From IMG/VR virus record IMGVR_UViG_2537562001_000004: a stretch of 64,000 bases of DNA. The stretch is one strand, 5' to 3'. Below the pieces are notes generated by a model. The model made no database searches, was not told the origin of the DNA, and saw nothing but the letters and a program-made list of their open reading frames with translations. Within the stretch, counting starts at the first letter, position 1. Every line of letters begins with the position of its first letter. Of the stretch, positions 7,900-62,099 are shown in pieces. The stretch is from a virus. The translations under genes and the position numbers were made by a program.

Positions 7900-8555
7900 G
7901 TTAAACCCCCAACTGGATTTAGTGATTAGTCGTGTACAATATGGTTCCAGATTAGTAGATCATCTATATACAAAATTAGAGCAATAAGGAATTCCTCATG
8001 CTGTATATGCCTATGAATGCTATGTATTTGTAGATGATGCGATTGTAGAAGCAAAAGACTTTTTAGAGAGAGTAAATCCAAATGCGAAGTTTCTTATTTT
8101 AGATGTGGAAGATGATACTTTGGATAAGAGTAAATTTGCAGAAGCATCACAAGCATTTATTGATACATGTCGTGCTTCAGGATGAAAAGTGGTTTATATA
8201 TATGTAGCACAACATATGTACGGTGATTATAAACTACAAAGTGTACAATCTGTACAAGCTGATTCATTTGGTTACCACGTTATGGGACAATCACAAATTA
8301 AGCCAGCGTATCCATGTGACATGTGGCAATATACAGATAATGGTTATATTGAAGGGGTTGGAAAAGTGAATATTAACTTACTACAAGGGGATAAAACATT
8401 AAGGTGGGATTTTGGAAAGTAGGCTAGTTTAATTACTCCAGAAGTAGGGAAACGGGTTGTTTCTAAGGTCGATCAATTACGATTCTATCCAAAACCTTCT
8501 TGGGTAAATGAAGATGATGCAGGTATTGTGACTAAAGGGTTAGGATTCACACCTA
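7900..8555 (+). pseudogene. GH25 muramidase plus SH3b endolysin, heavily decayed and truncated at its 3' end by an IS3-family insertion
   Basis: The translated fragments resemble the 32532..33258 endolysin (..DLWQYT../..[31 protein letters not shown]). ORF 8189..8422 is an internal piece. The reading frame runs straight into the IS copy at about 8556. Confidence 0.6.
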
Positions 8556-9711
8556 TGGAAAAAGTAGATGAGATGTACGAAGTTCACCACAATATAAAGT
8601 GGAAAGTGATTGAGATGAAAAAGGATGGTTATTCAAATCGTATCATTATGGAAACACTCGGAATTAAAAATGTTTCCCAAATTAAGACATGGATGAAATG
8701 GTATCGTACAGATCAAACATATCGTTTTCAACAACCTGTAGGAAAACAATATTCTTATGGAAAAGGGGCAAAAGAGTTAAGTGAATTGGAACAGCTACGA
8801 TTAGAAAATAAACATTTAAAAACAAAATTACTTGTATGGGGAAAGTATATGGAAATCGAAAGGAGCTGAAACCACATACCGTTATCACTCTATGGAATGA
8901 ATTAAAAACAAAAGTAACCGTACAAGAACTGTGTAACATATTAGAATTACCACGTTCCACATTTTATCGTTGGTTACAGACAACAGAACGCCCTAAAGAC
9001 GACATAGAAGAGAAAGTAAAGACGGTCTGTTTTAAGCATAAATTACGATATGGGTATCGAAGAGTGACCGCCACTCTTCAAAAAATGGGGCTATGTGTCA
9101 ATCATAAAAAAGTATTACGAATCATGAACAAATACCACATACTCTCGAAAGTACGTCGTAAGAAAAAGAAATATATCAATGGTGCAGAACCAGTTGTAGC
9201 TCCTCATCGATTAGAACGTCAATTTGAAGCGTCAGCCCCAAATGAAAAGTGGTTTACGGATGTAACGTATTTATTATTTGGAGAGCGTACTTTGTATTTA
9301 TCAACGATTATGGATGCCTTTAATCGCGAAATTATAAGTTATGTCGTCAGTGAATCACAAACGCTGGGATTAGCGATGAAGACGTTAAAACAAGCAATGA
9401 GAGGAAGAAAAATAAAAGATGTCCTCTTTCATTCAGATCAAGGAAGTACTTATACTGCGAAGGAATTTCAAGCGTATGCCAAAGAAAAAGGCATTATCAC
9501 CAGCATGCCCCGGAGAGGAAATTACCATGATAATGCCGTCATGGTAAGCTTCTTTTGTCATTTAAAAAGTGAAGCTTTCTATTCACAAAAGATAACAAAA
9601 GTATCCAACACAACTGTGCGAATTCAAGAAAAATTAAACCACCTATCCCCTAAAGAATTTAGGGAACAGATGGTTTAGGTGTTTTAATAGGTGTCCCTTT
9701 TTCAGGGTTCA
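8556..9711 (+). mobile_element. IS3-family insertion sequence, copy 1 (orfA about 8555-8869, orfB 8836..9678). OrfB carries an internal deletion relative to copy 2.
   Basis: OrfA is a helix-turn-helix protein (KWKVIEMKKDGYSNRIIMETLGIKNVSQIKTWMKWYR). OrfB is an rve-type DDE transposase (HSDQGSTYTAKEF..NYHDNAVMVSFF). The right end ..cagggttca matches copy 2 at 41401. About 12 codons (IVLEYIHYYNRV) present in copy 2 are missing here. Confidence 0.75.
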
Positions 9712-12791: not shown

Positions 12792-14295
12792 GGCTCTTTA
12801 ATTTTGTTTAAATGACTAAGAACAACTAATTTGTAACTACTCACGATAATTAATAATTTGTTAACAACTAACGAGGAGGAAATGACGGCGGGTGTCGCTT
12901 TAAAGGTTGTGTATAAATTCCCGGGCTTGTAGCGGGATCTCTACACATTTCCTATCTCTTTGAGTCTACAAAGGTTTCAATCTTCTTTTCCCTTGTAGGC
13001 TGAAAGGGGTGAAAGGTCAGTAGCGTGTGAAATTCTAAAATATAGTTAATTTGTTAATAATACGTGAAACCTGAAACCCAAAACTCAAAATTCCTACTGT
13101 TAATTGTTCGGGAGTTTCTCCTAGCAAAGAGTAACGCGGATAAGCGTTATTTATTGTCTCATTAATTAAACGATGGTCAATATAAGTTCTTTGAAAAGAA
13201 AATCTGGGGATAGCGTGCTCATTAAAACAACGTTACTCTGTGACGCGGAGGTTAGAGGGGATAAGAGTTTCCCGGAAAGAAAGTGTGTATTTTTCGGTGT
13301 TAAACGAAAAATTAGAAGTGTTTTCGAAATTGATGTATGTAAAAATATAGGGCTGGATAACAACTCCACAAGACATATTACTTATCGAACGATATCAGGG
13401 GAAGGGTTTCCCTTCCTTTGAGCGTACAGCAAAATGAAATAATACACGATGATTGAAGGCAACTTGCTGTGCGTTGAAAGGTGTGGAAACACCATCCCTT
13501 TTTTGCAAAACAAACTGTATTTATAATTACATTTTTCTGATAGAAAGCTTTGTTTCCCTAAGACAGAGGTTTTTATCATTTGAGAGTAACTAATTAGTTG
13601 CTCATTTTTTTATGTTTTTTTCATCAATAGATGAAGAAATAGCAGCGTTTTCCAGCTGGATATATGTGATTATATAAGCGTGAATAACAATCTATACATT
13701 CACTTTAAAATTCATGTTGTTGGGAGGGTTTTCCCTTCCTTTGAGCGTACAGAAAAGGTTAAGATTCTTATGTATCCGTCTATCAATCATCTTACCGTTC
13801 GTCCTGCTGTACGTTGAAAGGTGCGGAAAACACCATAAAGAAGGTTTGTTACATTGTACTCCTGATAAAGTTTATGCTTGATAAAAAGTCCTGTTTCTAG
13901 ATTGGAGAACAGGACTTTTTGTTTTATTACAATCCTTTATATAACAAGGTGTATAGTGAGTTCCTCTGATTGTTACAGTGGTTGGTACTAAGTAAGAGTG
14001 ATCAATTGGTTTCTACTTTTTCGTTAATAGATGAAAAAATAGAAACGTTTTCGAAATAGGCTTACGTAATAATATAGGTGTGGATGCGCTTCCACATTTT
14101 GTTTGAATCACATATTGTTGGGAAGGGTTTCCCTTCCTTTGAGCGTACAGCAAAATTAAACGGTTCCCTTCAGTTCCTTCACTGATTCTGCTGTACGTTG
14201 AAAGGTGTGGAAACACCATCCCTATTGTGCACATTGTAATATAATCTGATAGAAAGCTCTGTTTGTATAACAGGGCTTTCTATCGTTTAAGAGCA
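12792..14295 (+). ncRNA. Copy B of the large structured element. It has M1 (12792-13130), M2 (13130-13370) and three M3 hairpin modules (13398-13494, 13722-13836, 14120-14219). Each M3 is followed by a terminator-like hairpin (13538-13575, 13873-13915, 14252-14285). The third is also followed by a box motif at 13945-13990.
   Basis: Same module order and sequence as copy A. The M3 units repeat at about 330-400 bp spacing with partial M2-tail repeats (cgttaatagatgaaaaaatagaaacgttttcgaaa) between them. The loops differ between units. Confidence 0.6.
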
Positions 14296-18723: not shown

Positions 18724-18797
18724 TGGACCTTGTAGGACTCGAACCTACGGCCGAACGGTTATGAGCCGTTTGCTCTAACCAGCTGAGCTAAAGGTCC
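18724..18797 (-). tRNA. tRNA with anticodon CAT (Met or lysidine-Ile2 type)
   Basis: The reverse complement ggacctttagctcagctggttagagcaaacggctcataaccgttcggccgtaggttcgagtcctacaaggtcca folds as a cloverleaf with a 7-bp acceptor stem and a CTCATAA anticodon loop. A terminator hairpin lies downstream and a conserved R4 promoter-like region lies upstream at 18798-18990. Confidence 0.85.
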
Positions 18798-19214: not shown

Positions 19215-20340
19215 TATAACGTAAGCTACAGGAACTTACATATACAATCGAGACACAAACAAGAAAGGGATAGGAAATATACATTTCCTATCCCTTTGAG
19301 TCTACAAAGGTTTCACTCATTCAATCACTCCTATTATCTTTTTGTAGGTTGAAAAAGATAATAGGTCAGTGGCGTATGAAAGTCTAATAAAAATATCAAA
19401 CCGTCAATAATACGTGAAATATCAGACCTCGAAATACCACTGTTAATTGATTTGGGAGTTCTATTTGCAAAAAAATAGCGTAAATAGGCATTATTTTTTG
19501 TTGAATTAATTAGTCGACAGTCAATTAGTGTTCATTGAAAAGAAAATATGTTTCATGAGATATTGTGTTCATTATAATAACGTTGCTAGGTGATTCGGAG
19601 GCCAGATGGCATAAGAGTTTCTCGAAAAGAAGATGTGTTTTTTCGTCAATAGATGAAAATTAGAAATATTTTCGAAAGGTGTATTTGTGTTATGTTTTAG
19701 GTGAGAATAGTCATGTGAAAGATGTCTATTCTAATTCAAGAATGTTTAAGGGCCACACAGAGGTTATCTTAAGTGTTTTTGACGACAATTTAATATTTAT
19801 GCTGACTTGGAAGGGTTTTCTCTTCCTTTGAGTGCACAGCAAAACGAATGTATCCGTTTTGCTGTGCGTTGAAAGGTGCGGAAACAACATAAACATTATT
19901 CACTACATTATGGTTTCTGATTTGATAAGAAGTCCTATTTTCTAAATTGGAGAGCGGGGCTTTTTATCGTGTATACAATATCTCATATACAGAGGCGAAT
20001 AGTGAGTTTCTTGAACAAAAAAACGCTTCTATTTTTTCGTTAATAAACGAAAAAATAGAAGCGTTTTCGAAAAACATTTCTGTAATAATATAGATGTAGA
20101 AGAAAAATTTACAATAACATCCTAAATTTCTTTGTTTTCGTAGGGAAGGTTTTCCTTCCTTTGAGCGTACAAAAAGCCAAGGAAAAAAGGCGATTTTGCT
20201 TTGCTGTACGTTGAAAGGTGCGGAAAACACCAAACTAGGGCAGCTTACTGTTTATGATACTTTATCAATGTAATAAATTTATTAAAAAGCCCTATCATTC
20301 ATAAAGATTAGAATGATAGGGCTTTTGGTCACTTAAGAGT
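19215..20340 (+). ncRNA. Copy C of the large structured element. M1 is truncated at its 5' end. There are two M3 modules (19809-19888 and 20143-20231) and terminator-like hairpins (19920-19965, 20285-20328).
   Basis: Same module order. The first M3 has a short loop of about 20 nt. A box motif is present at 19975-20010. Confidence 0.55.
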
Positions 20341-26085: not shown

Positions 26086-27201
26086 TTATTTTTTTCCTAT
26101 TCTCCCCAAACTATCTTTAATAGTGGTTTCCCCCAGTTGAGTGTATAATAAAGCTGTATCTTGACTAGTATGCCCAAGTTGCTGCATTACTTGTAACGAG
26201 TCTTTTTCTTCCATATATAATTTATTTGCTAATGTATGTCTTAATTTATGAGGAGACATTCTTTTTCCGAATGATTTAGTATATTTTTCTACTATATCCT
26301 GGATAGCCCTAACCGAAAGAGGTTGTGCAGTATGTTTATATTTCGATAAAAATACATTTTTTAATTCTTTTCTTGGAGCATATTTGCTATCTCTAATTTC
26401 CATATATTTTTCAAGATCATTCAATGCAATTGGGGTAATCCATACTGAATCTTCTTTATTTCCTTTGCGGATTACATCAATTAGTCTTTCTTTTAGGTTT
26501 ATATCCTCCATACGAAGATCGGCTAATTCACTTACACGAATACCACTACCAAGAAAGAGGGAGAGGATAGCTACATCACGATCTTTATCTCTTAGGAAAT
26601 AGAACAACTGATGTTTTGTTAAAGATTTTTCATGTTCGTACTTAACGTAATTCAAAAATTCTTGATCGTCATCATTATGGAATATTTTAGATCTCATACG
26701 TTTCGCACGAGCATTTAATGTTTCTTTATCTTTATGTATTTCTATTTTAGCCATGACATTTCTATAAAAATAACATTCTCCATCATCATTTTCTGATAGG
26801 GAGGTAAGGTACTTAAATAAAGACTTTAAGGCCGAAATTTTTCTGTTAACAGAGGAATTCTGCATGTTTTGTTGTAGTTTTAGAAACCTTATAAAGTTCT
26901 CAACATCTTTTTTCTTTAAATTCTCCAAATCAGAGAAGGATATGTCTTTTATGGGTTTCAATTCAATAATTTGTTCAGATAATAACCAATTAAAGAAGAC
27001 TCTGAAATCATATACATAATTCAGTAGGGTGGAGGGAGAGGCATCATGCAATTCTTTGTACTCCACAAATTCTTCTATGTAAAAGGGCATTTCATTTAGA
27101 TTTTCGTATAATTTCTTACGATGTACGGATTTTTGACGTTGCTTGCTGTAATCCATAAAAATCACCTCATCTATACTATAACAGAAAAAACACACGAACA
27201 C
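26086..27201 (-). CDS. Tyrosine site-specific recombinase (integrase), intact
   Basis: A 371-aa ORF. The C-terminus has a catalytic R..HxxR..Y arrangement (KLRHTLANKLY...LGHTSQDTALLYTQ). It lies in an AT-rich island (23600-29500). Confidence 0.7.
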   Translation of the reverse strand: MFVCFFCYSIDEVIFMDYSKQRQKSVHRKKLYENLNEMPFYIEEFVEYKELHDASPSTLLNYVYDFRVFFNWLLSEQIIELKPIKDISFSDLENLKKKDVENFIRFLKLQQNMQNSSVNRKISALKSLFKYLTSLSENDDGECYFYRNVMAKIEIHKDKETLNARAKRMRSKIFHNDDDQEFLNYVKYEHEKSLTKHQLFYFLRDKDRDVAILSLFLGSGIRVSELADLRMEDINLKERLIDVIRKGNKEDSVWITPIALNDLEKYMEIRDSKYAPRKELKNVFLSKYKHTAQPLSVRAIQDIVEKYTKSFGKRMSPHKLRHTLANKLYMEEKDSLQVMQQLGHTSQDTALLYTQLGETTIKDSLGRIGKK

Positions 27202-31630: not shown

Positions 31631-31736
31631 CAATTATGGAGTTTGAATTTCAAAAAAATTATAGAATTAGTTCCTACGTTAAGGGGAATTTAAGCAAAAA
31701 AGGAACTCAATAGATTGTTTTTTTCATTAACGGACC

Positions 31737-31810
31737 TTTAGCTCAGCTGGTCAAAGCAAACGGCTCACAACCGTTCGGTCATAGGTCGAATCCTACAAAA
31801 TCCATATAAC
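31737..31810 (+). pseudogene. Degenerate tRNA(CAT)-derived pseudogene
   Basis: ggacctttagctcagctggtcaaagcaaacggctcacaaccgttcggtcataggtcgaatcctacaaaatcca. The acceptor and T stems are broken and the anticodon has mutated to CAC. Confidence 0.55.
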
Positions 31811-37114: not shown

Positions 37115-37315
37115 TCATATTTTTAGAACTCTTTCAAACTCTGCATCTACTTTTTCAGCAAGAGCTCCATCAGTAAATCCATCCCCGTAACCTTTAGCTA
37201 TTAAGAAATCATCGAATTCATTTAGGAATATTTCAATCTTCTCTGTTATGTTTTTATCACTGTTAAAAGTCAGTTTAAGATTAAGTTGTCCCTCATTTGA
37301 ATTTAGTGAAGCCAC
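37115..37315 (-). CDS. Hypothetical 66-aa protein, paralog of 60541..60753. It is the divergent partner of the head-module gene at 37437..37757.
   Basis: SLNSNEG.LNLKLTFNSDKNITEK.E.FLNEFDDFLI..GYG.G is shared with ORF 60541..60753. Confidence 0.5.
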   Translation of the reverse strand: MASLNSNEGQLNLKLTFNSDKNITEKIEIFLNEFDDFLIAKGYGDGFTDGALAEKVDAEFERVLKI

Positions 37316-37436
37316 GCTGATTGAACAGTGTTTTATCTTGATTTTCGTTTCATTATTTTACACATTTTTCCTCATTGACGGAAATTATGTTACCTTTTCT
37401 ATCTTCTTATTTGTCGTATGATGGCGACGATAGGAG

Positions 37437-37757
37437 GTGAATATAATGAATAAACTAGAAAAAGTTATTGCAGTTCTTAAAGAACTTAGAATTTCTGCTG
37501 CATCCATTGATTCTGAAATCGCTTTAAGGAACACTATGAAAAGGTACAATATGCTATTTATTGGTAGTGAATTCAAAATCATACTTTCTTCAGACTTACA
37601 TCACTGTTTAATAGATAAATTCGAATGCAGAATCTCAGAAGAAGACTTTTTAAGTGTTATTCCGATTGCTTGTGAATCACTAGAAATGAAAACTGAAGCC
37701 ATGTATCTCCTGGAAGACTGTAGCAAAATAGTAGGATACTCTATCCAACTATTTTAA
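37437..37757 (+). CDS. Hypothetical 106-aa protein behind the conserved head module
   Basis: A strong ribosome-binding site (aggagg) lies 7 nt before the ATG at about 37446. The track start at 37437 is an upstream GTG. Upstream sequence is shared with 60836 and 61523. Confidence 0.5.
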   Translation: MNIMNKLEKVIAVLKELRISAASIDSEIALRNTMKRYNMLFIGSEFKIILSSDLHHCLIDKFECRISEEDFLSVIPIACESLEMKTEAMYLLEDCSKIVGYSIQLF

Positions 37758-38282
37758 AAGATTCATCATATAGAAGATTTTCACTCAATAATAGACCACT
37801 TAAAATCCTAGCTTTATTCGGTGTAATTCTACCTTCTTTTAGTAGGTCGCTAAGGTAACTTTCCTTTTCGTGCCTCACAATCCATATTGAATGGTTGTGG
37901 GGTTTTTGGTTCGTATATTTCATTTCTTTCATCTCCTAATTTGATAGTTTGATTGATTCTAAATTCACCCAACCGAAATAGAAACATTCTCAACGTTCAT
38001 AGTTGTCGGAACTTCCTTACAGCTTTTGATATTTCATCACATTCAATCGCATATAAAAGCGCGTTTTCTCGTAAGTCCTTTACCTCAGACTAAATCTCTT
38101 TCATTTCCTTTGCTTTAAATAACGAACGATTATATCTTATGCTAAGATATAAAACGAAAAACATATACAAATGCCCATAGAACAACACTTATTCGCATTC
38201 TAAATTTTTATACGATCGATAAAAACGATACAAAAAGAAGAGTATGTGGGCAACTTGTGGGCAAAAAAAGACACTTAGCAAA

Positions 38283-38498: not shown

Positions 38499-39679
38499 GT
38501 GAGAACCTCAAAAAGAACACTCGTTTGTGCACACCACAGAACTAATGTTCTGTTTTTTTAACAATGAATTGCTAGTTTCACTTTTGTGAGGAATTTATGA
38601 AGGCATAAAAAGCCCCCGAATACTAAACATCGGGGGACTCTAAAGGTAAATAGGAGAAAAGACCGTAGAGGGGAACCTCTACAATTAAAATACTACATAA
38701 TAATATATCGTAAGCACATATTATCATAATTTTCTTATTCCGAAACATTAAAATTTTCATTGAAGAACGAAAAAATACTACTTTTCATTCACTCAACTTA
38801 TGTTACAGTTCCCTATGTTAGCAAATAATAATATTTTCAAAAAGAGGTTATTACATGAGTTATGATACTGTGCATCGCTACAACGTATGCAACAATTAGA
38901 ACAAGAACAAGCAGCAACTGGGAAACCTTTAGTATTAAAAAGGAGAACTCCTAAATTGAATATTATTATTGTAATAACTTTTTTATTAGCTGTTCCAATC
39001 CTTACACTTTCTATATTGATATGGGCCACTTATTTTTCAATCAAAGAATTTATGACTAAAACATATTTATTAAAAACGTAGCTACAGGTGAACAATTCCA
39101 TGTAGAAAAACAGGACTTCAAACAATATAAGAGGAACTTTAAGAAGAAAGAAAAACAAGTGAGAAAGATATCTGACTTGTAATAAAAGGAGAAAATTCGA
39201 TGGATGCAAAAAAACAAGAAAACAAATTGCAAGATAGACAACTGAAATATGTACTCAAAAAATATATTATTTCTGGTAAAGATTTTGATCCAAATAACAT
39301 TAGAACACAAGAAGAAATTACTGATATTCAAGAAGGGTTTGATAAATTTCATAAGCTTTCTGAGGAAGAATTAAATGAACTATTTCTTTCTATTAGAAAC
39401 GGCACTTACAAACTATAAGGTAAAAACCCTCAATTTACTTGAGGGCTTCTCATGGGAGTCTTGAAGAATTCATTTAACCATTATCATATTCCCATATAAT
39501 ACATCGTTAAAACAATAAAAAATTTCCCTTAATGACGAAAAATTACATAATCCAATTTATCAACCGCATGATAAATTATCCATGCGCTGTTGTTTTATAT
39601 GCATTATGTCATCGGATAAGAAAACAAATTACTTAAGTCACTCAAGAAAAAGCACTCGAAAGAATGCTTTTTCTCTGAA

Positions 39680-39753
39680 CGGACCTTTAGCTCAGCTGGT
39701 TAGAGCAAACGGCTCATAACCGTTCGGTCGTAGGTTCGAGTCCTACAAGGTCC
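39680..39753 (+). tRNA. tRNA with anticodon CAT (Met or lysidine-Ile2 type), intact
   Basis: ggacctttagctcagctggttagagcaaacggctcataaccgttcggtcgtaggttcgagtcctacaaggtcca. The acceptor GGACCTT pairs with AAGGTCC. The anticodon CAT is at 39714-39716. No CCA is encoded. A conserved upstream R4 region lies at 39452-39679. Confidence 0.9.
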
Positions 39754-41400
39754 ATAAATACCTTGTCATTCACATCAACTTGACAAGGTATATACTAAGA
39801 AGTAAAATAACTATCCGTGTAAAAACTTGGTTTATACACTCCATTGTGAAAGATCGGGTTAACACCAACAACTTTCATGACATTCTTAATTGTGTTTATC
39901 AAGGATGTACATCAGAGCGGTTTAACAAGTGGTAATAACGAAAGAGATAGGGCTCTAATATAGTTAACAATTTGCGTGAACTGCATTACTCAAAATGACA
40001 TCTAAACAAACAACAAAAAGACATCTTCAACTGGGGAAGATGTCTTTTTTATCAAAACTAAAAACCAACATTTTTTCCTTTGAAAAAGAAAAAATATATC
40101 ATTTGAATTTTCATTTCACACATATAATATACTTAGACGTTCCGAACTTCTAAGTCAAAAATCACCTTATCGCAATGGGATTTTTTTAAAAAAGCGTTTT
40201 ACAGCGGACCATAAAATAAAAAAGAAGCCTCCACCATCATATTCTAATGACAGTGGAGGCTTCTTTTTTGTGTGTAAATCTCAACAGTCTAGAATCATAC
40301 ACTTTAGGACATAACGGAAGAACAAAAACTGGGAGAATTCATTCTAAATACATCGACTTGTAACTATAATCTCATAAATCCAACACGAAAAGCGATTTAT
40401 TATTTCCTTTAATAAAAGAAATAATAAATCTCCGTAATTCCGAATGTAGTTATATACTAACATTATAAATTTATTTTGACCTACTTTTGTTTTTGTAATG
40501 TCATGACATACATTGTTTGATTAGGATTCGCGCCTTTTCAAACAACAAAAAATCCCCGAAACTCACACAGAGCATCGGGGATTTTTCTATGATTCTTGAG
40601 GAAATCATTTAATCACCATTATAATCTCATAAAATACATCGTTAAAACTATATGAAATTTCCTTTAATACAGAAAAACAAAGTATGGTTTGGCCATTATG
40701 CTGTGATAAGCTTTAAGTGCATACATAAAAAGTTGGAATAAGCAATTAAGATGTCTGATTGGGAAACGAACATCTTAAAGAACCTCAGCAACAGAAAAAG
40801 CCAGAACTCAAATTGAGTCCTGGCTTTTTTACATTTATACAATCACATAGAAAAGGCTCCCAACCGTACAATTGGGAACCTTCCGAGGGAGAAAAATAAT
40901 ATAGATAAAAATAAAGTATATGTCAATTCCAATAATGGATTCATAAATATCATCTCACAAAAGTATCATCTAAGATGATTGAAATTTGCCTTTATATGAG
41001 AAAATAAAGATTTCTAATTCTAAAGATTCTATGATGTATTTTGTATTGCAAAGACGGGAATTGACATCTAGTACCGTGACACGAAGAAAGAGCTTATTCT
41101 CATGTGGAGATTGGGCTCTTTTTTATTTCGTAAGGTTATATAACAAAAAGAGCCCTCAACAGTTTTGTTGAGGGCTCTCTAATTAGGGTATACAGAAAAA
41201 AGAAACACATGACATACATTCAATCGCATCATCTCACAAAAACAACATTCAAAATGATTGAAAATTTCCGTTAGCCCAGAAAAAAATAGTACCCCTATAC
41301 ACTAATGCATTATGATAATATTTATTTGACAATCGCAGTCACAGAAAATGTATGTTTACGGATATTTATAAAAAAAGAACCAGAACTCTTCCCCTTGAAG

Positions 41401-42472
41401 TGAACCCCGAAAACGGGGCACCTATCAAAACACCTAAACCATCTGTTCCCTATATTCTTTAGGGGATAGGTGGTTTAATTTTTCTTGAATTCGCACACGA
41501 TTGTAGTAATGAATGTATTCTAGCACAATCTTTCGCACAGTTGTGTTGGATACTTTTGTTTATCTTTTGTGAGTAGAAAGCTTCGCTTTTTAAATGACCA
41601 AAGAAGCTTTCCATGACGGCATTATCATGGCAATTTCCTCTCCGGGATATGCTTGAAATTCCTTCGCAGTATACATACTTCCTTGATCCGAGTGAAGGAT
41701 GACATCTTTTACTTTTCTCCCTCGCATTGCTTGTTTTAATGTTTTCATCGCTAATGTTAAAGTTTGTGATTCACTGATGACATAACAAATAATTTCACGA
41801 TTAAAGGCATCTATAATCGTTGATAAATACAATGTGCGCCCTCCAAATAATAGGTAAGTCACATCCGTAAACCGCTTTTCATTTTGGGTTGATGATTCGA
41901 ATTGACGTTCCAATCGATGAGGGTCTACGACTGGTTCAGCACCATTGATATATTTCTTTTTCTTACGATGCACTTTTGAGAGTATATGATATTGTTTCAT
42001 AATCCGTAATACTATTTTATGATTGACACATAGCCCCGTTTTTCGAAGAGTGGCGGTCACTCTTCGATATCCATACCGTAATTTATGCCTAAGGCAGACC
42101 TTCTTTGCTTTCTCTTCTATCTCGTCTTTAGGGCGCTCGGCTTTCTGTAACCAATGATAAAATGAGGAACGTGGTAATTCTAATACTTTACACAGTTCTT
42201 TTATGGTTACTTTTGTTTTTAAATGCTTATTTTCTAATCGTAGCCGTTCCAATTCACTTAGCTCTTTTGATCCTTTTCATAAGAATATTGTTTTCCTACA
42301 GGTTGTTGAAAACGGTACGTTTGACCGGTGCGATACCATTTCATCCATGTCTTAATTTGGGAAATATTTTTAATTCCAAGCTTCTCCATAATGGTCCGAT
42401 TGGAATACCCATCCTTTTTCATTTCAATCACTTTCCACTTTACTTCTTCTGGGTAATGAACTCTTGTTTTCA
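41401..42472 (-). mobile_element. IS3-family insertion sequence, copy 2 of the 8556..9711 element. OrfB is frameshifted by a deletion of about 27 bp.
   Basis: ORFs 42258..42533 (orfA) and 41590..42252 (orfB) are 85-90% identical to copy 1. The deletion removes AKEKGIITS and shifts the frame at ..AKEFQAYPGEEIAMIM. Confidence 0.7.
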
Positions 42473-42507: not shown

Positions 42508-43796
42508 TGAAGTGACCCAATGAAATAAGACAAGGAAAAAACACCTATGCTACCTGTTTCTTATATTCTATAGGAGACAGGTAGTTTAACTTTTCTTGAA
42601 TACGTTCCGTATTATAATACTCAATGTAATCGTGAATGAGTTGTTTGAGAGTAGAAGTTGAATGTATTTGTTTTTCTTGGGAGTAAAACAATTCAGATTT
42701 CAATGAGGAATGAAAAGATTCTATTACGGCATTATCATGACAATTTCCTTTACGGGACATACTTGTGGTAATGCCATTCTCTTTAGATAACGTTTGGAAA
42801 GCGTAGGAGGTATACACGGCCCCTTGATCACTATGTAGTATAATTTGAGTCTTTTGTTTTAGTTTGATCGCCTTCTCAACTGTGTTTAAGACAAGTGTTA
42901 CGTCTTGTCTGTTACTTATTTCATACGCAATGATTTCATTGTTATATAAATCCATAATACTTGATAAATACAACATCTCTGTACCAAATGGCAAATATGT
43001 AATGTCTGTAACCCATTTTTCATTTGGCTTGTTAGCTTGAAAGTTTCTATTTAAGAGATTCTCTACAACAATTCTACTTTCTCCATTGATCCAGGTTCTT
43101 CTCTTTCTTTTAACCCTACATTGTAAACTTTTCTTTTGCATTATTTTTTGTACAGTTTTTCGATTTAGGTGATAATTATATTTTCGTTTCAATAAAGCAG
43201 TAACTTTTCGATGGCCATATCGAAAGTGATTTGTCATACAAATTGTCAAAATAGCCTGTTCTAATTTTGCTTCCTTTACATCTTTTGCTTTATTTTTCCA
43301 TCGATAATAAGTAGAACGAGGTATACCAATTAATATACATATCTCTTTAATGGAGTACTCATCTTTCATCAACTCCACTACTTCTACAACTACTTCTTTA
43401 ACCAACTCCTCTCGATTTCGTGGTACTTTTTTAAAATATCTAGTTGCATTTTTAATTTCCGATTCTCTATTTGAAGTTTCTCGATTTCAGTTATGCCTTC
43501 TTCACTAGCCTTTTGTAGCGCACTTTGTTTTCCTACAGGGCGATTAAAACGATACGTTTCACCTTCACGATGCCACTTCATCCAAGTTTTAATCTGTGCT
43601 TTATTTTTAATTCCTAATTGTTCCATAATTTCTTTGTTTGTGTATCCTTGTTTTTTCAGTTCGATTGTTTTCCATTTAATTTCTTCTGAATAAGATTTTC
43701 TCGTTCCCATAAAAGAAACACCTCCGTATATTCGTATTTAAATTAAATACGGTATAAGAGGTGTTTTTTCCTTGTCTTATTTCATTAGGTCACTTC
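42508..43796 (-). mobile_element. IS3-family insertion sequence (second type), apparently intact (orfA 43390..43710, orfB 42545..43405). It abuts IS copy 2.
   Basis: Terminal inverted repeats of about 38 bp (tgaagtgaccYaatgaaataagacaaggaaaaaacacc). OrfA has a helix-turn-helix and leucine zipper. OrfB has an rve DDE domain (HSDQGAVYTSYAF..GNCHDNAVIESF). The orfA/orfB overlap is typical of a -1 frameshift. A possible 3-bp target duplication is att. Confidence 0.75.
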
Positions 43797-45017: not shown

Positions 45018-45238
45018 TTATCGCTCCTTTGTTTTATAGCCTTCAATTGCTCCATTTCCTTCTCGACCATCCTTTTAACATCACGTTTTTCACGAATCAC
45101 TTTGATAATGTCAACCATCCAATTTGTACAACTTGATACCAGAATGACAAGGAATATAATGGACAATATTTCTCCCATCCCACCACTCTCCTTTTCACAC
45201 AAAAATAGAGCAACCAAACGGTTACTCTTGTATAGCAA
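45014..45238 (-). CDS. Small single-transmembrane protein, probably 54 aa starting at the ATG near 45178. Resembles a type I toxin or holin.
   Basis: The ribosome-binding site aaaggag lies 8 nt before ATG GGA GAA ATA. MGEILSIIFLVILVSSCTNWMVDIIKVIREKRDVKRMVEKEMEQLKAIK. Paralogs lie at 45981..46202 and 47001..47198. Confidence 0.55.
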   Translation of the reverse strand: MLYKSNRLVALFLCEKESGGMGEILSIIFLVILVSSCTNWMVDIIKVIREKRDVKRMVEKEMEQLKAIKQRSDK

Positions 45239-45299
45239 AAAGCGTGATTTATTCTGATCCTTGAGAATAAATCATGCTTTAAGAAAAACATATATTCAA

Positions 45300-45610
45300 T
45301 AGATGTTTGCGCCCTAGTCTGGTGTTTTCCACACCTTTCAACGTACAGCAGAATCAGTGCAGGAACTGAAGGGAACCGGTTAATTCCGCTGTACGCTCAA
45401 AGGAAGGGAAACCCTTCCCATGTCTTGGGTAAATTAATTTTGTGAAGTTGCGATCCACACCTATATTATTCCATAATCACCTTTTTGAAAACGCTTTTAT
45501 TTTTCATCTATTAACGAAAAAACACGTTTTCTTTTCAAAGAACTCTTATCCCCTCTAGCCTCCGCTTCACCGAGTAACGTTTATTATAATGGGCACGCTA
45601 TGTTCCTTCT
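45300..45610 (-). ncRNA. M2 partial (45480-45600), M3 hairpin module (45321-45419) and a terminator (45239-45285) leading the small transmembrane-protein gene at 45178
   Basis: ggtgttttccacacctttcaacgtacagcag-[loop]-gctgtacgctcaaaggaagggaaacccttcc. Confidence 0.55.
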
Positions 45611-47000: not shown

Positions 47001-47198
47001 TTAAAAGAGCAACCATGCATCAGTTGCCCTTTCGTCGATTTCCTTCTTCAACGACTTATTCATATCACGTTTTTCACGGATCACTTTGATTATGTCAATA
47101 ATCCAACTTGTACAACTTGATACCAGAACGACAAGAAATATAACAGACAGTATTTCCCCCATCCCATCACACTCCTTTTCGCATAAAAAATAGAGCAA
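47001..47198 (-). CDS. Small single-transmembrane protein paralog (true start probably near 47162)
   Basis: MGEILSVIFLVVLVSSCTSWIIDIIKVIREKRDMNKSLKKEIDE. An M3 module (47294-47408) and terminator (47222-47256) lie upstream. Confidence 0.5.
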   Translation of the reverse strand: MLYFLCEKECDGMGEILSVIFLVVLVSSCTSWIIDIIKVIREKRDMNKSLKKEIDERATDAWLLF

Positions 47199-47221
47199 CC
47201 AAATGGTTACTCTTCAACGAC

Positions 47222-48100
47222 AAAAAGCCCTGTCTTGGGTAAACAGAGCTTTCTATCAGAAAAAAGTTATTACATATACTACACAATAGGGACGGTGTTT
47301 TTCTACACCTTTCAACGTACAGCAATTTTTTTAATGTGAGCACTACGATTGATTTTTCAATGTCAGTTTTGTTTTGCTGTACGCTCAAAGGAAGGGAAAA
47401 CCCTTCCCCATAATATGATTTTAAAGGTAAGAACAACACGTAAGTTGGCTACTTACACTTATATTTTTACACATATTCATTTCAAAAACGCTTCTGATTT
47501 TTCATCTATTAACGAAAAAACACGTTTTCTTTTTGAGGAACTCTTATCCCCTCTAGCCTCCGCGTCACCGAGTAACGTTATTATAATGAGCACGCTATCC
47601 CACGAAACGTATTCTCTTTTCAAAGAACACACTTATTGAACACTGGTTAATACGTACTAACAAAAAACAACGTAACAAAACGTTGCCTCTTGCATAGATA
47701 ACACCCGATCAATTAACAGTAGTAATTGAGGTTTCAGCTTTCGCGCATTACTGACGAGTTAAAATGTTTTAGACTTTCATACGCTACTCACCTATTACCT
47801 CTTTCAGCCTACAAATGGAATGGATAACGATTGAATGAGTGATTGGAACCTTTGTAGACTCAAAGAGATAGGAAATGTGTATTTCCCACTCTTTCGTGTT
47901 CAGTCCAGTATATGGATGGTTTCCCATCTTTAAAGGTATTCACCTTAAGTTGCAGTGCGAAATTCCAACTTAAAACAATCCCCTTAAAGAGAGGAAATCC
48001 TCTCCTCCTCGTTGGTCGATAACTAATTTGTTATCATTGTGAGTAATTACAAATTAACTGCTCGGCTTGAGATGTTTAAACAAAATAAAAGAGCCAACAG
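47222..48100 (-). ncRNA. Copy E of the large structured element, reverse orientation. M1 is at 47690-48100, M2 at 47450-47640 and M3 at 47294-47408. It lies directly downstream of the intact ArpU gene.
   Basis: The reverse complement aligns along its full length with copies A and B. Confidence 0.6.
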
Positions 48101-53179: not shown

Positions 53180-54760
53180 CTTTTTAAGCTTCGCCCCTGG
53201 TTTTGCACCAATTGAAGCTATTTGAGATTCATCACAAATTACTTACTTCATAAAATCTTCCACTGTGACGCCTTTCGCTTCTGCATCACCTGTATCCAAT
53301 TTCACTAAAGTAACGTCATTAAATAACAATGGATTAGCTGTAATTGTGTATGCAACATCATCCATAACCATCATTGTTTCTTTATGGGCAACTAAAAAAG
53401 CCACAAATCCATCAATCTTCTTTTTGGACTGTCGGTAATTAAACGCTTTTCATAAATTAGTATTTCTGAATCATCAAGCATTGCATTCATAACGTTTGGA
53501 TACTGATTTACGGCAATACATTCTAAACCGAGATTTTCAAGCTTCTCTATTAACTTTTGAGACATCGCTGGGTCATAGTTTATTTGTTGCACATCGTATA
53601 AACCCATGCATTCAACGATATATTCCATAACTTGATCATGCTCAATCATCTTTCCATCACAAAACGTAGCAAAACCACGTTCAACTATATCGGTATATGG
53701 GACATTGTCCTCTTTTTCTTTAAAATCAATGTTCTCATTAGGAAGGAAATACATCTGTTTAACTTTTATAATCGGCCTTTCTTCGTCATCATGTGAAAGG
53801 GAGTTTAAACTTACACAGGTTAATCTGTTGTTTTAGATAAATCCAATCCTAAATAGCAACCTTCACCTGTAAGGTCACCCAAATCTTCTGCAAGAACATG
53901 TTGTACTTGATCATGCTCAAAATAATTATCAGCACCATTTACGAAAACATTTAAGTGTTTGGAAAGAAACTCAGCTTTTGAATGTGCGGACTGCTTCGCT
54001 TTTTTGAATTCAATCTCAAGTGGCTCCATCGCAACGGAAACACCAATATTCGGGTTAACCATTTCCAAAACTTTACGATCTTCCCAATCATAATTTTTAT
54101 TAGGTTCCCAGATTGCTACAAATAAGGAATCATCATCATTTTCAAGAACAAGTTTCGCATATTTATAAACACGCATACCGACAGATGACGTAACCTTACC
54201 AGCCGTTGAAATATTAAGCATCATTGGTTATTCACGTGAAATCTGAGCTGACTTCAAGTTATCGTACATCTCCATATTTTCTTGCGCATGGGGTTCATCG
54301 TTCAAGACAAAATAAGGGTTCTTTCCTTCAAGCCCCTTAGGGTTTTTCGTTAATACTTTGAATTTATTTTGATATACAATTCCATTGATGCTATATCGAT
54401 ACATAATTAACACCTTTATAAATTTGAGTAGGTTGTGCCAGAGGTTCAGGGTCTTCTATTGCTTGTGCAATTGGTTCAGCTGCGTTTTGCGCTTATTCAT
54501 AGTCTGATGCTGCACAATAACAATCCGCTCCAAGTTCTAGTTCACCATACATAGCATAGAGCAATGCACTTGCTGCAATAATTGTTTTTCCATTCTTCTT
54601 TGGTACTTGAACATATGATTCACGAATAACACGAACGTTTTTTCCTTTTTCGTTTTTATGATACCAACCATACATATTCGCAAAAACAAACATTTCCCAA
54701 AGTTCTAATTCCATCAATTGACCTGCAAGTGGCCCTTTAACATGAAGAATGAACAAAATC
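53180..54760 (-). pseudogene. Phage terminase large subunit, fragmented into at least four ORFs
   Basis: 54493..54756 has Walker A (VPKKNGKT). 53820..54224 and 53392..53754 carry nuclease-domain-like segments (GLDLSKTTD). Frames alternate and stops intervene. Confidence 0.6.
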
Positions 54761-56069: not shown

Positions 56070-56950
56070 GCCCTATTCTTCAATTAAGAAAACAGGGCTT
56101 TTCGCCGGTTTAAGAGAATGTGTTCTACAAAAAAGTTAGCACATTTTCTCGTCTGGTGCTTTCACACCTTTTAAATATTAAATTGTTATAGTGCGAAATT
56201 ATTTTCCGCACCTTTCAACGTACAGCAGATTATAGATGTGAGTGCAAATAATGGTTTTTGATGTCATGTTTATTCCGCTGTACGCTCAAAGGAAGGGAAA
56301 TCCTTCCCTAGAAAAATAAAAAAATCAAGAATATAGGTGCGAAGTTGTCATCCACACCTATATAATCACACATATTCATTTCGAAAGCACTTCTAGTTTT
56401 TCATCTATTAACGAAAAAACACGTATTCTTATCGAGGAACTCTTATCCCCTCTAGCCTCCGCACCACCGAGTAACGTTTTTTAATGAGCACGCTATCCCA
56501 TAAAACGTATTATCTTCTCTAAGAACATTTATTGACCGTTGGTTAATTAATCGAACAAAAAATAACGCTTATTTACGTTACTCTTTGAAAGGAAAAATCT
56601 AAATCAATTTAAATCAATCAAAAACAATTATTAAGGCTTCGGCCTTCACGTATTACTGACGGTATAAAATTTGTTGTAGACTTTCATACACTACTAACCT
56701 ATTACCTTTGTAGGCTGAAAGAGATAGGAAATGTGTATTTCCCCCTCTTGTGTATCGGCACTTCAGTATATGGATAGTTTCTCATTTTTAAAGGTACTCA
56801 CCTTAAGCCATAGTACGAAATTCCAACTTAAAACAATACCCTTATCTTCTTCCTCGTTGGTCGGACCCTTGCTTACGTTTATTCGTGAGTAAACTATAAT
56901 TAATTGCCCTTGCCGAGTGTTTAAATAGAATTGAAAAAAGACATCAATTT
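56070..56950 (-). ncRNA. Copy F of the large structured element, reverse orientation, with an M3 at 56190-56308 and an extra half-unit at 56153-56180. The central M1 stem-loop is collapsed by an internal deletion at about 56700-56730.
   Basis: The reverse complement aligns with the other copies. Where they have ctctttgagtctacaaaggtt[35 nt]tttgtaggctgaaagaggtaat, this copy has only ctctttcagcctacaaaggtaat. Confidence 0.55.
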
Positions 56951-60540: not shown

Positions 60541-60753
60541 TTAAGATACATCATTTTTATCAGCAACCCCCTCCCCATATCCTTCGGTTATTAAGAAATC
60601 ATCGAATTCATTCAGGAATGTTTCACCCTTCTCTGTTATGTTTTTATCACTATTAAAAGTCAATTTAAGATTAAGTTTTCCTTCATTTGAATTTAGTGAA
60701 GCCTCGCTGATTGTACAATGTTTTATCTTGATTTTCTTCTCATTATTAGACAT
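60541..60753 (-). CDS. Hypothetical 70-aa protein, paralog of 37115..37315, divergent from 60836..61048
   Basis: See 37115..37315. Confidence 0.5.
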   Translation of the reverse strand: MSNNEKKIKIKHCTISEASLNSNEGKLNLKLTFNSDKNITEKGETFLNEFDDFLITEGYGEGVADKNDVS

Positions 60754-60835
60754 ATTTTTTCCTTCTTAACGGAATTTTACTCACTCTTTTACAACCATAG
60801 TTGTCTTATGATGGCAACAAGAGGAGGTGTGAATT

Positions 60836-61048
60836 ATGAAACTTTATTACTTTAACAAAAATACGGATGGTAAGGGTAATCATGAAGTACATACTAGTGA
60901 TTGTGATCGCTTACCAAATTTAGAGAATAGTATTTTAATTGGGTATTTTTATAATTGTCAAGACGCTATCACTAGCGCCAAAAATGCGTACCCGTATAAA
61001 TCTTTTGATGGTTGTTTTTACTGTTGTAACTCATGTCACAAAAATTAA
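60836..61048 (+). CDS. Cysteine-rich 70-aa hypothetical protein behind the conserved head module
   Basis: HEVHTSDCDRLP...DGCFYCCNSCH. The ribosome-binding site is aggagg. The ATG may be 1 nt to the right of the track coordinate. Confidence 0.5.
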   Translation: MKLYYFNKNTDGKGNHEVHTSDCDRLPNLENSILIGYFYNCQDAITSAKNAYPYKSFDGCFYCCNSCHKN

Positions 61049-61522
61049 TTGCCCCAAAACGCTAGGTACAGCCCCCTAGCGCTTTTTTCAAAGATAAATT
61101 GTTCTCTCCCTTAAGATTGGACTACTAAACCTCTTATCCCCTCAATATCAGTAGTACCTGTTTTTAATAAACACGTCCACTCTGTTCTTCCTTCTTTCCA
61201 CATAAAGGCATGTATCTCTATAACCTCATACCCAAGCTCACTCGCTAATCCAATACTTTTTTGATAAATGCATGAGACCTCATAACATAATAAAAAAGTC
61301 CCCATGTAGCTATACTGCTGGACAATTGGTATTCAATTTCTTCATCTATGCATTTATCACAACAAATATCTTTTATATAAAAATTTCTATATAGAGATTA
61401 TATACCCTTGACCTTTCCCATAAGTTGTTCCTTTGCACATATTTTTCCTCCTAAGATGAAATTTTGTTAGCGTTCCTAACTCCTTATTTGTCGTATGATG
61501 GCGACAAGAGGAGGTGTGAATT

Positions 61523-61798
61523 ATGGCCGTGTATTTAATCACATATGATTTACATAAATTTGGTCAAGATTATAAAGGACTTCATCAAAAAATCAAAAGT
61601 TTAGGCGAAAACATCCACCCTTTAGAATCTACTTGGATTGTTTCTAGTAATCACGATAGCAAAGAAATATATAATACTCTCAAACCCTCATTAGATTCTA
61701 ATGATTGTATTCTCATTGTCAAAATTCAAAGTACATCAGATTACTACGGTTTACTTAATAAAGCTTACTGGTCTTGGTTAAAAACACATATCGATTAA
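61523..61798 (+). CDS. 91-aa hypothetical protein with a predicted beta-alpha-beta-beta-alpha-beta (ferredoxin-like, Cas2/VapD-like) pattern, behind the conserved head module
   Basis: MAVYLITYDL...TWIVSS...CILIVKI matches the alternation seen in Cas2-like small proteins. This rests on pattern only. Confidence 0.35.
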   Translation: MAVYLITYDLHKFGQDYKGLHQKIKSLGENIHPLESTWIVSSNHDSKEIYNTLKPSLDSNDCILIVKIQSTSDYYGLLNKAYWSWLKTHID

Positions 61799-62099
61799 TC
61801 CTCATTGAATGATATGCACTCTTCTTCTCTGACAGCCTCTGTAGTAACAGAGGTTTGATTCATTTTCTTTCCTCCTAAACCATGAATTTACGATAACTCT
61901 TGTAACATATGTAAAACGATGCACTAATTGTAATTCGTTTGTTACTTTCTTGTAGATCAACCAATTGTCAGGGTTCAATCCATTAGACTTGATGGGAATC
62001 CTCTTCCACTTGTGGACTTAAGACCGAATCTTTAAGATTTTGTTGCATTCGAATCCCCCCTACTTAATGTATGTTCATTTACGAATTCACAAAATCATT

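What the first reader, a model, noticed from the sequence alone, without database searches (positions are those of the whole stretch)
37380..37450. A roughly 90-nt conserved head module (upstream region plus ribosome-binding site) reused in front of three unrelated small ORFs, two with paralogous divergent partners
The string acatattttt.cctc.t.a..gaaatt.tgtta.c....ttatttgtcgtatgatggcgacaagaggaggtgtgaattATG occurs at 37385-37448, 60785-60839 and 61440-61525. The ORFs behind it are unrelated: 106 aa, a 70-aa Cys-rich protein (HEVH..C..DGCFYCCNSCH) and a 91-aa beta-alpha-beta-beta-alpha-beta protein. In two loci a paralogous divergent gene (37115..37315 and 60541..60753; SLNSNEG.LNLKLTFNSDKNITEK) starts about 80-120 bp upstream on the other strand, so the region looks like a shared bidirectional control region. 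Head-conserved, tail-variable small-gene cassettes resemble phage moron, toxin-immunity or polymorphic small-protein systems.
Basis: seen in the sequence. Interest (0 to 1): 0.6.

Follow-up and report, generated by a model that had tools for sequence, protein, structure and literature searches.

The report
Shared control region before swapped prophage genes
An 80-82 base stretch between two back-to-back genes occurs three times in decayed prophages of Bacillus cereus BAG6X1-2, each time in front of a different small phage accessory gene; it is a tidy but ordinary example of phages swapping genes at conserved gene boundaries.

Summary
The 29-nt core TTGTCGTATGATGGCGACAAGAGGAGGTG occurs at 37411, 60801 and 61488 with at most 2 mismatches; 0 are expected by chance. 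Each copy lies in an 80-82 nt intergenic region that runs from the start codon of a minus-strand gene to the start codon of an unrelated plus-strand ORF.

The window is B. cereus BAG6X1-2, a graveyard of IS elements and decayed phi4B1-like prophages. The plus-strand "cargo" genes are small accessory genes of unknown function: an ORFan, phrog_4298 and phrog_1090. They lie antisense inside the early operon, in the same orientation as the cI-like repressor. Two are followed by terminator-like hairpins.

Two more head copies were found in other Logan assemblies. One precedes a fourth unrelated cargo (phrog_23950). Cargo homologues elsewhere carry different heads.

Inside the head, TATGATGGC never varies. 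It sits 8 nt before the ribosome-binding site, the position where unrelated heads carry their -10 box. My best reading is a portable promoter and translation-start module at which recombination swaps cargo, as in morons and mosaic boundary sequences. No -35 box, regulator or RNA covariation was found.

The toxin-immunity reading is not supported. The head is very rare: three lineages only. Interest is modest.

The parts
37366..37445 (+). Head copy 1: 80-nt region between the ancestral, now out-of-frame, div1 ATG (37363-37365) and the cargo ATG (37446).
37411..37439 (+). Core of copy 1. Imperfect palindrome TTGTCG-N8-CGACGA (37411-37430) enclosing the -10-like TATGAT (37417-37422), followed by the RBS TAGGAGGTG (37431-37439).
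37446..37757 (+). Cargo 1 (IEQ_05002), 103 aa. An ORFan with no Pfam, PHROG or NCBIfam hit and no homologue in 5.8e9 protein clusters.
37115..37365 (-). div1, paralogue of div2. The start codon is put out of frame by a 1-nt insertion, so it is probably a pseudogene or N-terminally truncated.
60541..60753 (-). div2 (IEQ_05035), 70 aa, early-operon gene. A tiny family: 3 clusters at 90% identity, 4 representatives by exhaustive HMMER search. Weak match to phrog_9497. The beta-beta-beta-alpha model (pLDDT 73) has no fold match.
60754..60835 (+). Head copy 2, 82 nt. Core 60801-60829, TATGAT 60807-60812, RBS GAGGAGG 60821-60827.
60836..61048 (+). Cargo 2, 70-aa Cys-rich protein, phrog_4298 (E 4e-29), function unknown.
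61060..61090 (+). Terminator-like hairpin CGCTAGG...CCTAGCG plus T-run after cargo 2. It is preceded by an A-run, so it may act in both directions.
60932..60961 (-). Strong promoter-like site (TTGACA-18-TAAAAT, 11/12) inside cargo 2, antisense to it, pointing through the head into div2.
61111..61440 (-). d3: the divergent gene of copy 3, unrelated to div. Its ATG is at 61438-61440. The reading frame is broken by a stop and frameshifts, so it is a pseudogene.
61441..61522 (+). Head copy 3, 82 nt. Both flanking genes differ from those of the other copies. Core 61488-61516 with a perfect TTGTCG-N8-CGACAA palindrome, TATGAT 61494-61499, RBS 61508-61514.
61523..61798 (+). Cargo 3 (IEQ_05038), 91 aa, phrog_1090 (E 6e-25). 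Weak Cas2b-like hit. Homologues lie in the lysogeny or early regions of Enterococcus, Staphylococcus, Clostridium and Bacillus phages.
61834..61855 (+). Weaker terminator-like hairpin after cargo 3.
61695..61722 (-). Strong promoter-like site (TTGACA-16-TAGAAT, 11/12) inside cargo 3, antisense to it, pointing through the head into d3.

Best explanation
The head is the complete intergenic control region of a divergent gene pair in the early region of phi4B1-like temperate phages of the B. cereus group.

Its left end is the RBS and start codon of the next early-operon gene on the minus strand (div or d3). Its right ~60 nt is a portable expression module for a small accessory gene. That gene lies antisense to the early operon and in the orientation of the cI-like repressor.

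The module has three parts. The first is a -10-like TATGAT embedded in an imperfect palindrome, TTGTCG-N8-CGACAA, which is a candidate operator. The second, 8 nt downstream, is a strong RBS (GAGGAGG). The third is the ATG.

The cargo genes are moron-like: a putative own promoter, an own terminator for two of the three, and different genes at the same position in related phages.

Because the head is conserved between related phages and between neighbouring cassettes, homologous recombination within it swaps the gene behind it. The head has also been transplanted in front of a gene (cargo 3) that elsewhere carries another head.

Shown: the anatomy, the context, the cargo turnover, and conservation of the head at or above the level of the neighbouring coding sequence.

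Inferred: that TATGAT is the -10 box, that the palindrome is an operator, and that the cargo is expressed in the lysogen.
For: Repeat and its limits:
- Three copies, with similarity ending at the start codons.

Context:
- The contig is B. cereus BAG6X1-2 JH791986.1.
- The neighbours are a split large terminase (TerL), a small terminase, YopX and an ORF6N anti-repressor.
- The region is syntenic with phage phi4B1, including the cI/cro region. The early genes lie on the minus strand and a homologue of cargo 3 sits in the same antisense position.

More copies of the head:
- A fourth copy in L008 lies next to a div homologue (70% identical) and in front of an unrelated phrog_23950 gene. L008 carries intact replication genes.
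- A fifth copy in L035 lies next to a further diverged div homologue, P0007. That contig ends inside the core.

Same cargo with other heads:
- The 76%-identical homologue of cargo 3 (L033/L034) and phi4B1 itself carry a different head.
- The 59%-identical homologue of cargo 2 (L005) also has another head.

Constraint on the head:
- TATGATGGC is invariant in all four full-length copies and in the truncated L035 copy, while the palindrome arms vary.
- In 5 of 6 pairs the 66 nt upstream of div is more conserved than the div coding sequence. For L008 against L035 the figures are 91% and 78%.

Geometry:
- Unrelated heads of equivalent antisense genes have TATAAT, TAGAAT or TAAAAT 7-10 nt before the RBS.
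- MAFFT places them in register with TATGAT.

Recombination within the head:
- 11 informative sites group (h2, L008) against (h1, h3) on the left.
- 3 sites group (h1, L008) against (h2, h3) on the right. The switch lies in the invariant core.

Terminator-like hairpins follow cargo 2 and cargo 3.
Against: - The consensus scan finds no sigma-70 promoter in the head. No -35 box or TG extension lies at the right distance from TATGAT, so promoter activity is unproven.
- Only five copies from three lineages exist, so conservation could partly reflect recent exchange.
- No regulator was identified. The palindrome is unlike the phi4B1-type cI/cro operators. Copy 2 breaks two of its six pairs.
- Cargo 1 has no terminator and no homologue.
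- Expression was not measured.
Confidence: 0.6

Rival explanations
1. RNA-level control. The head is transcribed as a 5' leader, and the hairpin UUGUCG...CGACAA, extended by an upstream CU-rich stretch, sequesters the cargo RBS. This would be a translational operator, thermosensor or stabilising 5' stem-loop.
For: In copies 3 and 1 the minimum-energy fold pairs CUCCUU or CUUCU with GAGGAG. Energies are -16.7 and -14.9 kcal/mol, with z-scores of -2.0 and -2.8.
Against: - Copy 2 and L008 fold no better than shuffles (z -0.4 and -0.3).
- On the 4-copy alignment there are no compensatory changes, and 6 of 13 pairs are broken in some copy.
- The loop (TATGATGG) is more conserved than the stems.
- No promoter is seen upstream that would put the hairpin into the mRNA.
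- There is no Rfam match.
Confidence: 0.1
2. No special shared function. The copies are simply homologous leftovers of related prophages plus one local gene-conversion event. The region is conserved only because it carries two ordinary ribosome-binding sites and has been exchanged recently.
For: - The window is full of diverged duplicated segments from several decayed prophages and IS elements, about 200 repeat pairs in all.
- Another junction behaves the same way. L008 872-989 matches 38030-37918 at 86%, with unrelated proteins downstream.
- h1 against h2 is less conserved in the head (74%) than in div (89%).
Against: - In 5 of 6 pairs the head is more conserved than the adjacent coding sequence.
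- The most conserved block is not the RBS but the 20 nt before it.
- The head was placed in front of cargo 3, which has another head in its closest relatives.
Confidence: 0.2
3. The core is an operator for the host sporulation regulator Spo0A. TGTCGTA-TGA-TGGCGAC reads as two imperfect 0A boxes (6/7 and 5/7 of TGTCGAA) 3 bp apart, overlapping the -10 box. Cargo expression would then be shut off, or altered, at the onset of sporulation.
For: The consensus TGTCGAA, the binding of imperfect box pairs separated by 3 bp, and their use by phages phi29 and Nf are described in PMC2731898. The double-box pattern matches copies 1 and 3 with 3 mismatches.
Against: - At 3 mismatches or fewer the pattern is expected about 6 times per window by chance, and 11 were seen.
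- Copy 2 is worse (5/7 and 4/7).
- The lead arose post hoc, and no binding data exist.
Confidence: 0.05
4. Toxin-antitoxin or toxin-immunity pairs: div and the cargo are functional partners regulated from a shared operator.
For: The layout is a divergent pair of small genes. Cargo 3 has a weak Cas2b-like hit (E 0.003), and some Cas2/VapD-fold proteins are toxins (from my own knowledge).
Against: - div stays the same while the cargo changes among four unrelated families.
- Copy 3 has no div partner.
- In phages with a remote div homologue, the gene is co-directional with its neighbours and has no partner.
- There are no toxin-antitoxin or defence hits.
- The div model has no DNA-binding or antitoxin fold match.
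Confidence: 0.03

Closest known systems
Phage morons (autonomous promoter-gene-terminator units in prophages, as described for HK97/HK022-type lambdoid phages; from my own knowledge)
   Same: Small accessory genes that are present or absent, or replaced, at a fixed position in related phages. They have their own upstream control region, terminator-like hairpins follow two of the three, and their orientation fits expression from the prophage.
   Different: They are embedded antisense in the early operon rather than in the late region. Several unrelated cargo genes share one and the same head. There is no compositional difference from the flanks (GC 30-31% against 33%). Promoter activity and expression in the lysogen are not shown.
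Conserved boundary or linker sequences at mosaic junctions of temperate phages (modular exchange at gene boundaries; from my own knowledge)
   Same: Similarity starts and stops at start codons. Non-homologous genes lie on one or both sides. The pattern of variants inside the 82 nt is reticulate, with the switch in the invariant core.
   Different: Here the boundary element is a whole divergent intergenic region. It is more conserved than the neighbouring gene, and it is duplicated 600 bp apart within one prophage.
Heads of the equivalent antisense genes in phage phi4B1 and in L033, L005 and L008 (99-aa gene)
   Same: The same architecture: a divergent pair, a 50-90 nt intergenic region, and a -10 hexamer 7-10 nt before a GGAGG RBS.
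   Different: The sequences are unrelated. Those heads have recognisable -35 or TG-extended -10 elements and no TTGTCG palindrome.
Spo0A 0A boxes in the promoters of phi29-family phages (PMC2731898)
   Same: Two TGTCGAA-like heptamers 3 bp apart, overlapping a phage promoter element.
   Different: The matches are imperfect (6/7 and 5/7), close to chance level and untested. The host and the phage type also differ.

Membership tests
Phage moron | The gene is absent or replaced at the same position in closely related phages. | tested here: met
   The same head and div flank carry four different cargo genes. phi4B1 has other genes at the syntenic positions.
Phage moron | Its own promoter lies immediately upstream. 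| tested here: inconclusive
   An invariant -10-like TATGAT lies 8 nt before the RBS, in register with the -10 boxes of unrelated heads. No -35 box is present, and the consensus scan reports no promoter.
Phage moron | Its own terminator lies immediately downstream. | tested here: inconclusive
   A clear hairpin with T-run follows cargo 2 (61060-61081), and a weaker one follows cargo 3 (61834-61855). None follows cargo 1.
Phage moron | Expressed from the repressed prophage. | not testable with these tools
   Only the orientation, which is the same as the cI-like gene, is known.
Mosaic boundary (linker) sequence | A short conserved sequence at the junction between non-homologous genes in related phages. 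| tested here: met
Mosaic boundary (linker) sequence | Evidence of recombination within the element. | tested here: inconclusive
   11 informative sites conflict with 3, split left and right of the core. The RBS-to-ATG stretch is 11/11 identical between the neighbouring copies 2 and 3. The number of sites is small.
Integron-like gene cassette | A shared recombination site at the 3' end of each cassette, and an adjacent dedicated integrase. | tested here: not met
   The cargo genes share no 3' sequence. The only integrase ORF found in the window is the phage-type one at 26086-27201.
Toxin-antitoxin or polymorphic toxin-immunity pair | Cognate partner genes that co-vary, with recognisable toxin or antitoxin domains. 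| tested here: not met
   div is conserved while the cargo changes, and copy 3 lacks div. There are no family hits apart from Cas2b at E 0.003.
Structured RNA leader (riboswitch, thermometer or translational operator) | A conserved secondary structure supported by covariation, or a match to a known family. | tested here: not met
   There is no Rfam match. There are 0 compensatory pairs, and pairs are broken in copy 2 and in L008.
Spo0A binding site | Two 0A boxes (TGTCGAA) about 3 bp apart, bound by Spo0A~P. | tested here: inconclusive
   The sequence matches at 6/7 plus 5/7 in copies 1 and 3 and is weaker in copy 2. The pattern is near chance frequency. Binding cannot be tested here.

The most novel reading that the evidence does not exclude
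The head is a portable operator-promoter cassette. It places several unrelated accessory genes of one temperate phage under a single, still unidentified regulator, possibly Spo0A or a phage protein.

In two cassettes it faces a strong antisense promoter buried inside the cargo ORF. Each cassette would then be a small convergent-transcription switch between 'cargo on' in the lysogen and 'early operon on' in lytic growth.

The invariant core doubles as the crossover point for cargo exchange.
Probability: 0.2. Interest if true: 0.5.

Novelty: new member of a known kind. Interest (0 to 1): 0.25.

Why it matters
If the head is a functional promoter-operator, it gives a compact handle (82 nt, with a 29-nt core) for two things. 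One is finding lysogeny-expressed accessory genes in B. cereus-group prophages. The other is asking how such genes are co-regulated and exchanged.

It is also a clean small example of an intergenic region that is conserved more strongly than the genes on either side while both neighbours are replaced.

As it stands, it illustrates known phage mosaicism and does not reveal a new kind of system. The element is confined to three lineages in the collections searched.

Tried and rejected
Searches for more copies of the head:
- Exact-pattern scans of the core found nothing real. GTDB species representatives gave 0 hits and then 21 chance hits with a looser pattern. IMG/VR gave 0 hits and 1 chance hit. 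JGI metagenomes gave 0.
- BLAST of the loci and of the head alone against INPHARED and PLSDB gave only chance-level hits.

Searches for homologues of the genes:
- div has no match in the phage collection by tblastn and none in IMG/VR.

The palindrome as an immunity operator:
- Rejected. The cI/cro regions of phi4B1 and of this window use TAGCTAA-type and CTATCG-type repeats.

div as a recognisable DNA-binding regulator:
- The AlphaFold model (pLDDT 73) has no significant PDB fold match.

A Cas2-like fold for cargo 3:
- The model was too poor to test this (pLDDT 62, no fold match). PDB sequence searches were empty.

Alternative sigma-factor motifs (SigW-type CGTA, SigH, sporulation sigmas):
- I checked these by eye and found no consistent spacing. 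This was not a tool result.

A short upstream ORF (ATG ATG GCN ACN ...) starting inside TATGATGG:
- I considered it because two core substitutions fall on third codon positions. It has no RBS, and two sites are not significant.

Compositional anomaly of the cargo:
- None found.

Full report
**1. The observation**

The three sites were read directly. The 29-nt core TTGTCGTATGATGGCGACAAGAGGAGGTG occurs at 37411, 60801 and 61488 on the + strand, with 2, 2 and 0 mismatches. No shuffle gave any match. A profile of the roughly 110-nt region finds only these three copies in the window, at E 1e-27 to 1e-30.

Self-BLAST gives the extents:
- 60559-60840 ~ 37169-37450 (82% over 284 bp). This is most of the divergent gene, the intergenic region and the cargo ATG.
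- 61437-61516 ~ 37360-37439 (81% over 80 bp).
- 61482-61525 ~ 60795-60838 (91% over 44 bp).

The cargo proteins (103, 70 and 91 aa) are unrelated to each other. The two divergent proteins are 82% identical.

The third copy also abuts a divergent start codon (61438-61440) with the same RBS. That gene is different and is broken by a stop and frameshifts. The conserved unit is therefore the whole intergenic region from start codon to start codon: 80, 82 and 82 nt. div1 has lost its ATG through a 1-nt insertion.

**2. Context**

Exact-protein look-ups place the window on contig JH791986.1 of Bacillus cereus BAG6X1-2, GCA_000291355.1. The window has 33% GC and few long ORFs. It contains:
- IS3-type and IS4-type transposase fragments and a phage integrase;
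- three tRNA genes inside repeated segments;
- about 200 diverged internal repeat pairs.

It is a graveyard of integrated elements.

The 53-64 kb stretch is a decayed prophage with a large terminase (TerL) in three pieces, a small terminase, YopX and an ORF6N anti-repressor. It is syntenic with Bacillus phage phi4B1, including the cI-like and cro-like region at about 63.1-63.7 kb.

The early operon runs on the minus strand. The cargo genes lie on the plus strand, which makes them antisense inserts in the orientation of cI. phi4B1 carries an unannotated homologue of cargo 3 in the same antisense position.

The 34-40 kb stretch is a second relic with the same order: cargo, head, div, small genes, replication genes.

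**3. What the genes are**

- Cargo 2 is phrog_4298.
- Cargo 3 is phrog_1090. Its homologues lie in the lysogeny or early regions of Enterococcus, Staphylococcus, Clostridium and Bacillus phages. It has a weak Cas2b hit, and some depositors call it Cas-associated.
- Cargo 1 is an ORFan. By my estimate, a 103-codon ORF starting exactly at the head's ATG is unlikely by chance in 33% GC DNA, about 3e-4.
- div is a tiny family. It has three clusters among 5.8e9 and four representatives by exhaustive HMMER search. Its model (pLDDT 73) has no significant fold match.

**4. Relatives of the head**

The core is absent from GTDB representatives, IMG/VR, JGI metagenomes, INPHARED and PLSDB. Following the div homologues gave two further copies.

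- L008/L009 (Logan ERR9529544 and ERR9529532) is an early region with intact replication genes: Tad2-like, a replisome organiser, DnaC-like and dUTPase. The head is conserved there and precedes a fourth unrelated cargo, phrog_23950.
- L035 (SRR33868139) has a more diverged div (P0007) in front of a YqaJ/RecT module. Its head is about 90% identical to that of L008. The contig ends inside the core, as expected if the core is repeated in that genome.

Conversely, the closest homologue of cargo 3 (76%, L033/L034) and phi4B1 carry a different head. The 59% homologue of cargo 2 (L005) also has another head. Head and cargo therefore assort independently.

**5. Anatomy and mechanism**

The five copies comprise four full-length heads and L035, which ends inside the core. 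Three blocks stand out:
- the block next to the div start, CAT.TTTTTCCTC..A.CGGAAATT;
- a variable middle;
- the core TTGTC(G/T)TATGATGGC(G/A)AC(A/G)A.AGGAG.

TATGATGGC never varies, whereas the palindrome arms do.

TATGAT lies 8 nt before the RBS. Unrelated heads of equivalent genes have TATAAT, TAGAAT or TAAAAT 7-10 nt before theirs, and MAFFT puts these in register with TATGAT. This makes TATGAT the likely -10 box of a short-leader cargo promoter, with the palindrome (-18 to +2) as a candidate operator.

Against this, there is no -35 box or TG extension, and the scan reports no promoter in the head.

In 5 of 6 pairs the 66 nt upstream of div is more conserved than the div coding sequence. 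This argues for constraint or for frequent exchange.

Informative sites split into two conflicting groupings, 11 on the left and 3 on the right of the invariant core. The RBS-to-ATG stretch is 11/11 identical between the adjacent copies 2 and 3. Both points are consistent with recombination or gene conversion inside the head.

Terminator-like hairpins follow cargo 2 and cargo 3.

**6. Rivals**

- RNA hairpin sequestering the RBS. It forms well in copies 1 and 3 but not in copy 2 or L008. It has no compensatory support and no Rfam match.
- Neutral relic. This remains possible, because the window is full of such repeats and a second junction shows the same behaviour.
- Spo0A. The core reads as two imperfect 0A boxes 3 bp apart, as in phi29 and Nf, but such matches are near chance frequency.
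- Toxin-immunity. This is contradicted by a conserved div with changing cargo, and by copy 3, which lacks div.

**7. A feature that may matter**

Only seven sigma-70-like sites with 11 or more of 12 matches exist in the whole window (about 4.4 expected). Two lie inside cargo 2 and cargo 3. Both are antisense to the cargo and point through the head into the next early gene. By my estimate from those numbers, this placement has a chance probability of about 1e-4.

They would face the putative cargo promoter and could restart early transcription after the cargo terminator. Cargo 1 and the L008 cargo lack them.

**8. Verdict**

The finding is real and correctly described in outline. It is best explained as a conserved, portable intergenic control module of a rare lineage of B. 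cereus-group temperate phages, at which accessory (moron-like) genes are swapped. That makes it a new member of a known kind. The mechanism is inferred, not shown. Interest is modest.

Noticed in passing
window 60932-60961 (-) and 61695-61722 (-): Two of the only seven near-consensus sigma-70 sites in the window (TTGACA-18-TAAAAT and TTGACA-16-TAGAAT) lie inside the small cargo ORFs. Both are antisense to the cargo and aimed through the head at the next early gene. This may be a face-to-face promoter arrangement, or a restart of the early operon after the cargo terminator.
   Followed up: partly
window 18724-18797 (-), 31732-31804 (+), 39681-39754 (+): Two tRNA-Met(cat) genes and a low-scoring tRNA-Val(cac) gene sit inside mutually similar segments (for example 39647-39756 ~ 31698-31806). 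This suggests repeated integration of elements at a tRNA gene and partial duplication of the attachment region.
   Followed up: partly
window 47035-48057, 45051-45601, 12942-13614, 2661-3275, 19258-19690, 56202-56844 and others: A family of apparently non-coding repeats with at least 10 copies, about 100-700 bp long and 70-90% identical, with 30-nt perfectly conserved cores. A roughly 95-nt piece is 93-95% identical to unannotated intergenic DNA on B. mycoides plasmids. They are probably interspersed repeats of the B. cereus group (bcr-like).
   Followed up: partly
window 5304-6742 (-), 8528-9678 (+), 41590-42252 (-), 42545-43710 (-): Several IS copies, some split: an IS4-like DDE_Tnp_1 in two ORFs, and IS3-family rve transposases, of which 41363-42222 ~ 9744-8902 at 81%. 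Together with the terminase split into three ORFs (53392-54413), this points to widespread gene decay in the region.
   Followed up: partly
window 37918-38030 vs L008 872-989: A second junction with a conserved head and a variable gene behind it. The stretch is 86% identical across the 3' end of one gene, the intergenic region and the first codons of the next gene, after which the proteins (63 aa and 70 aa) are unrelated.
   Followed up: partly
L035 position 1 (end of Logan contig SRR33868139_2663): The contig stops exactly inside the invariant core (...TATGATGGCGACG). This is what a repeat-induced assembly break would look like if that genome holds several heads with different cargo.
   Followed up: no
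L007 3001-3264 (KT626446.1 27286-27549): Phage phi4B1 has an unannotated ORF homologous to cargo 3 (36% identity over 99% of the query), lying antisense between XO26_0033 and XO26_0034. Part of it overlaps the annotated XO26_0034.
   Followed up: partly
L008 164-391: A Tad2-like (anti-Thoeris) gene lies about 1 kb from the head in the phage with intact replication genes. This stretch of the early region therefore looks like a hotspot for accessory or counter-defence genes.
   Followed up: no
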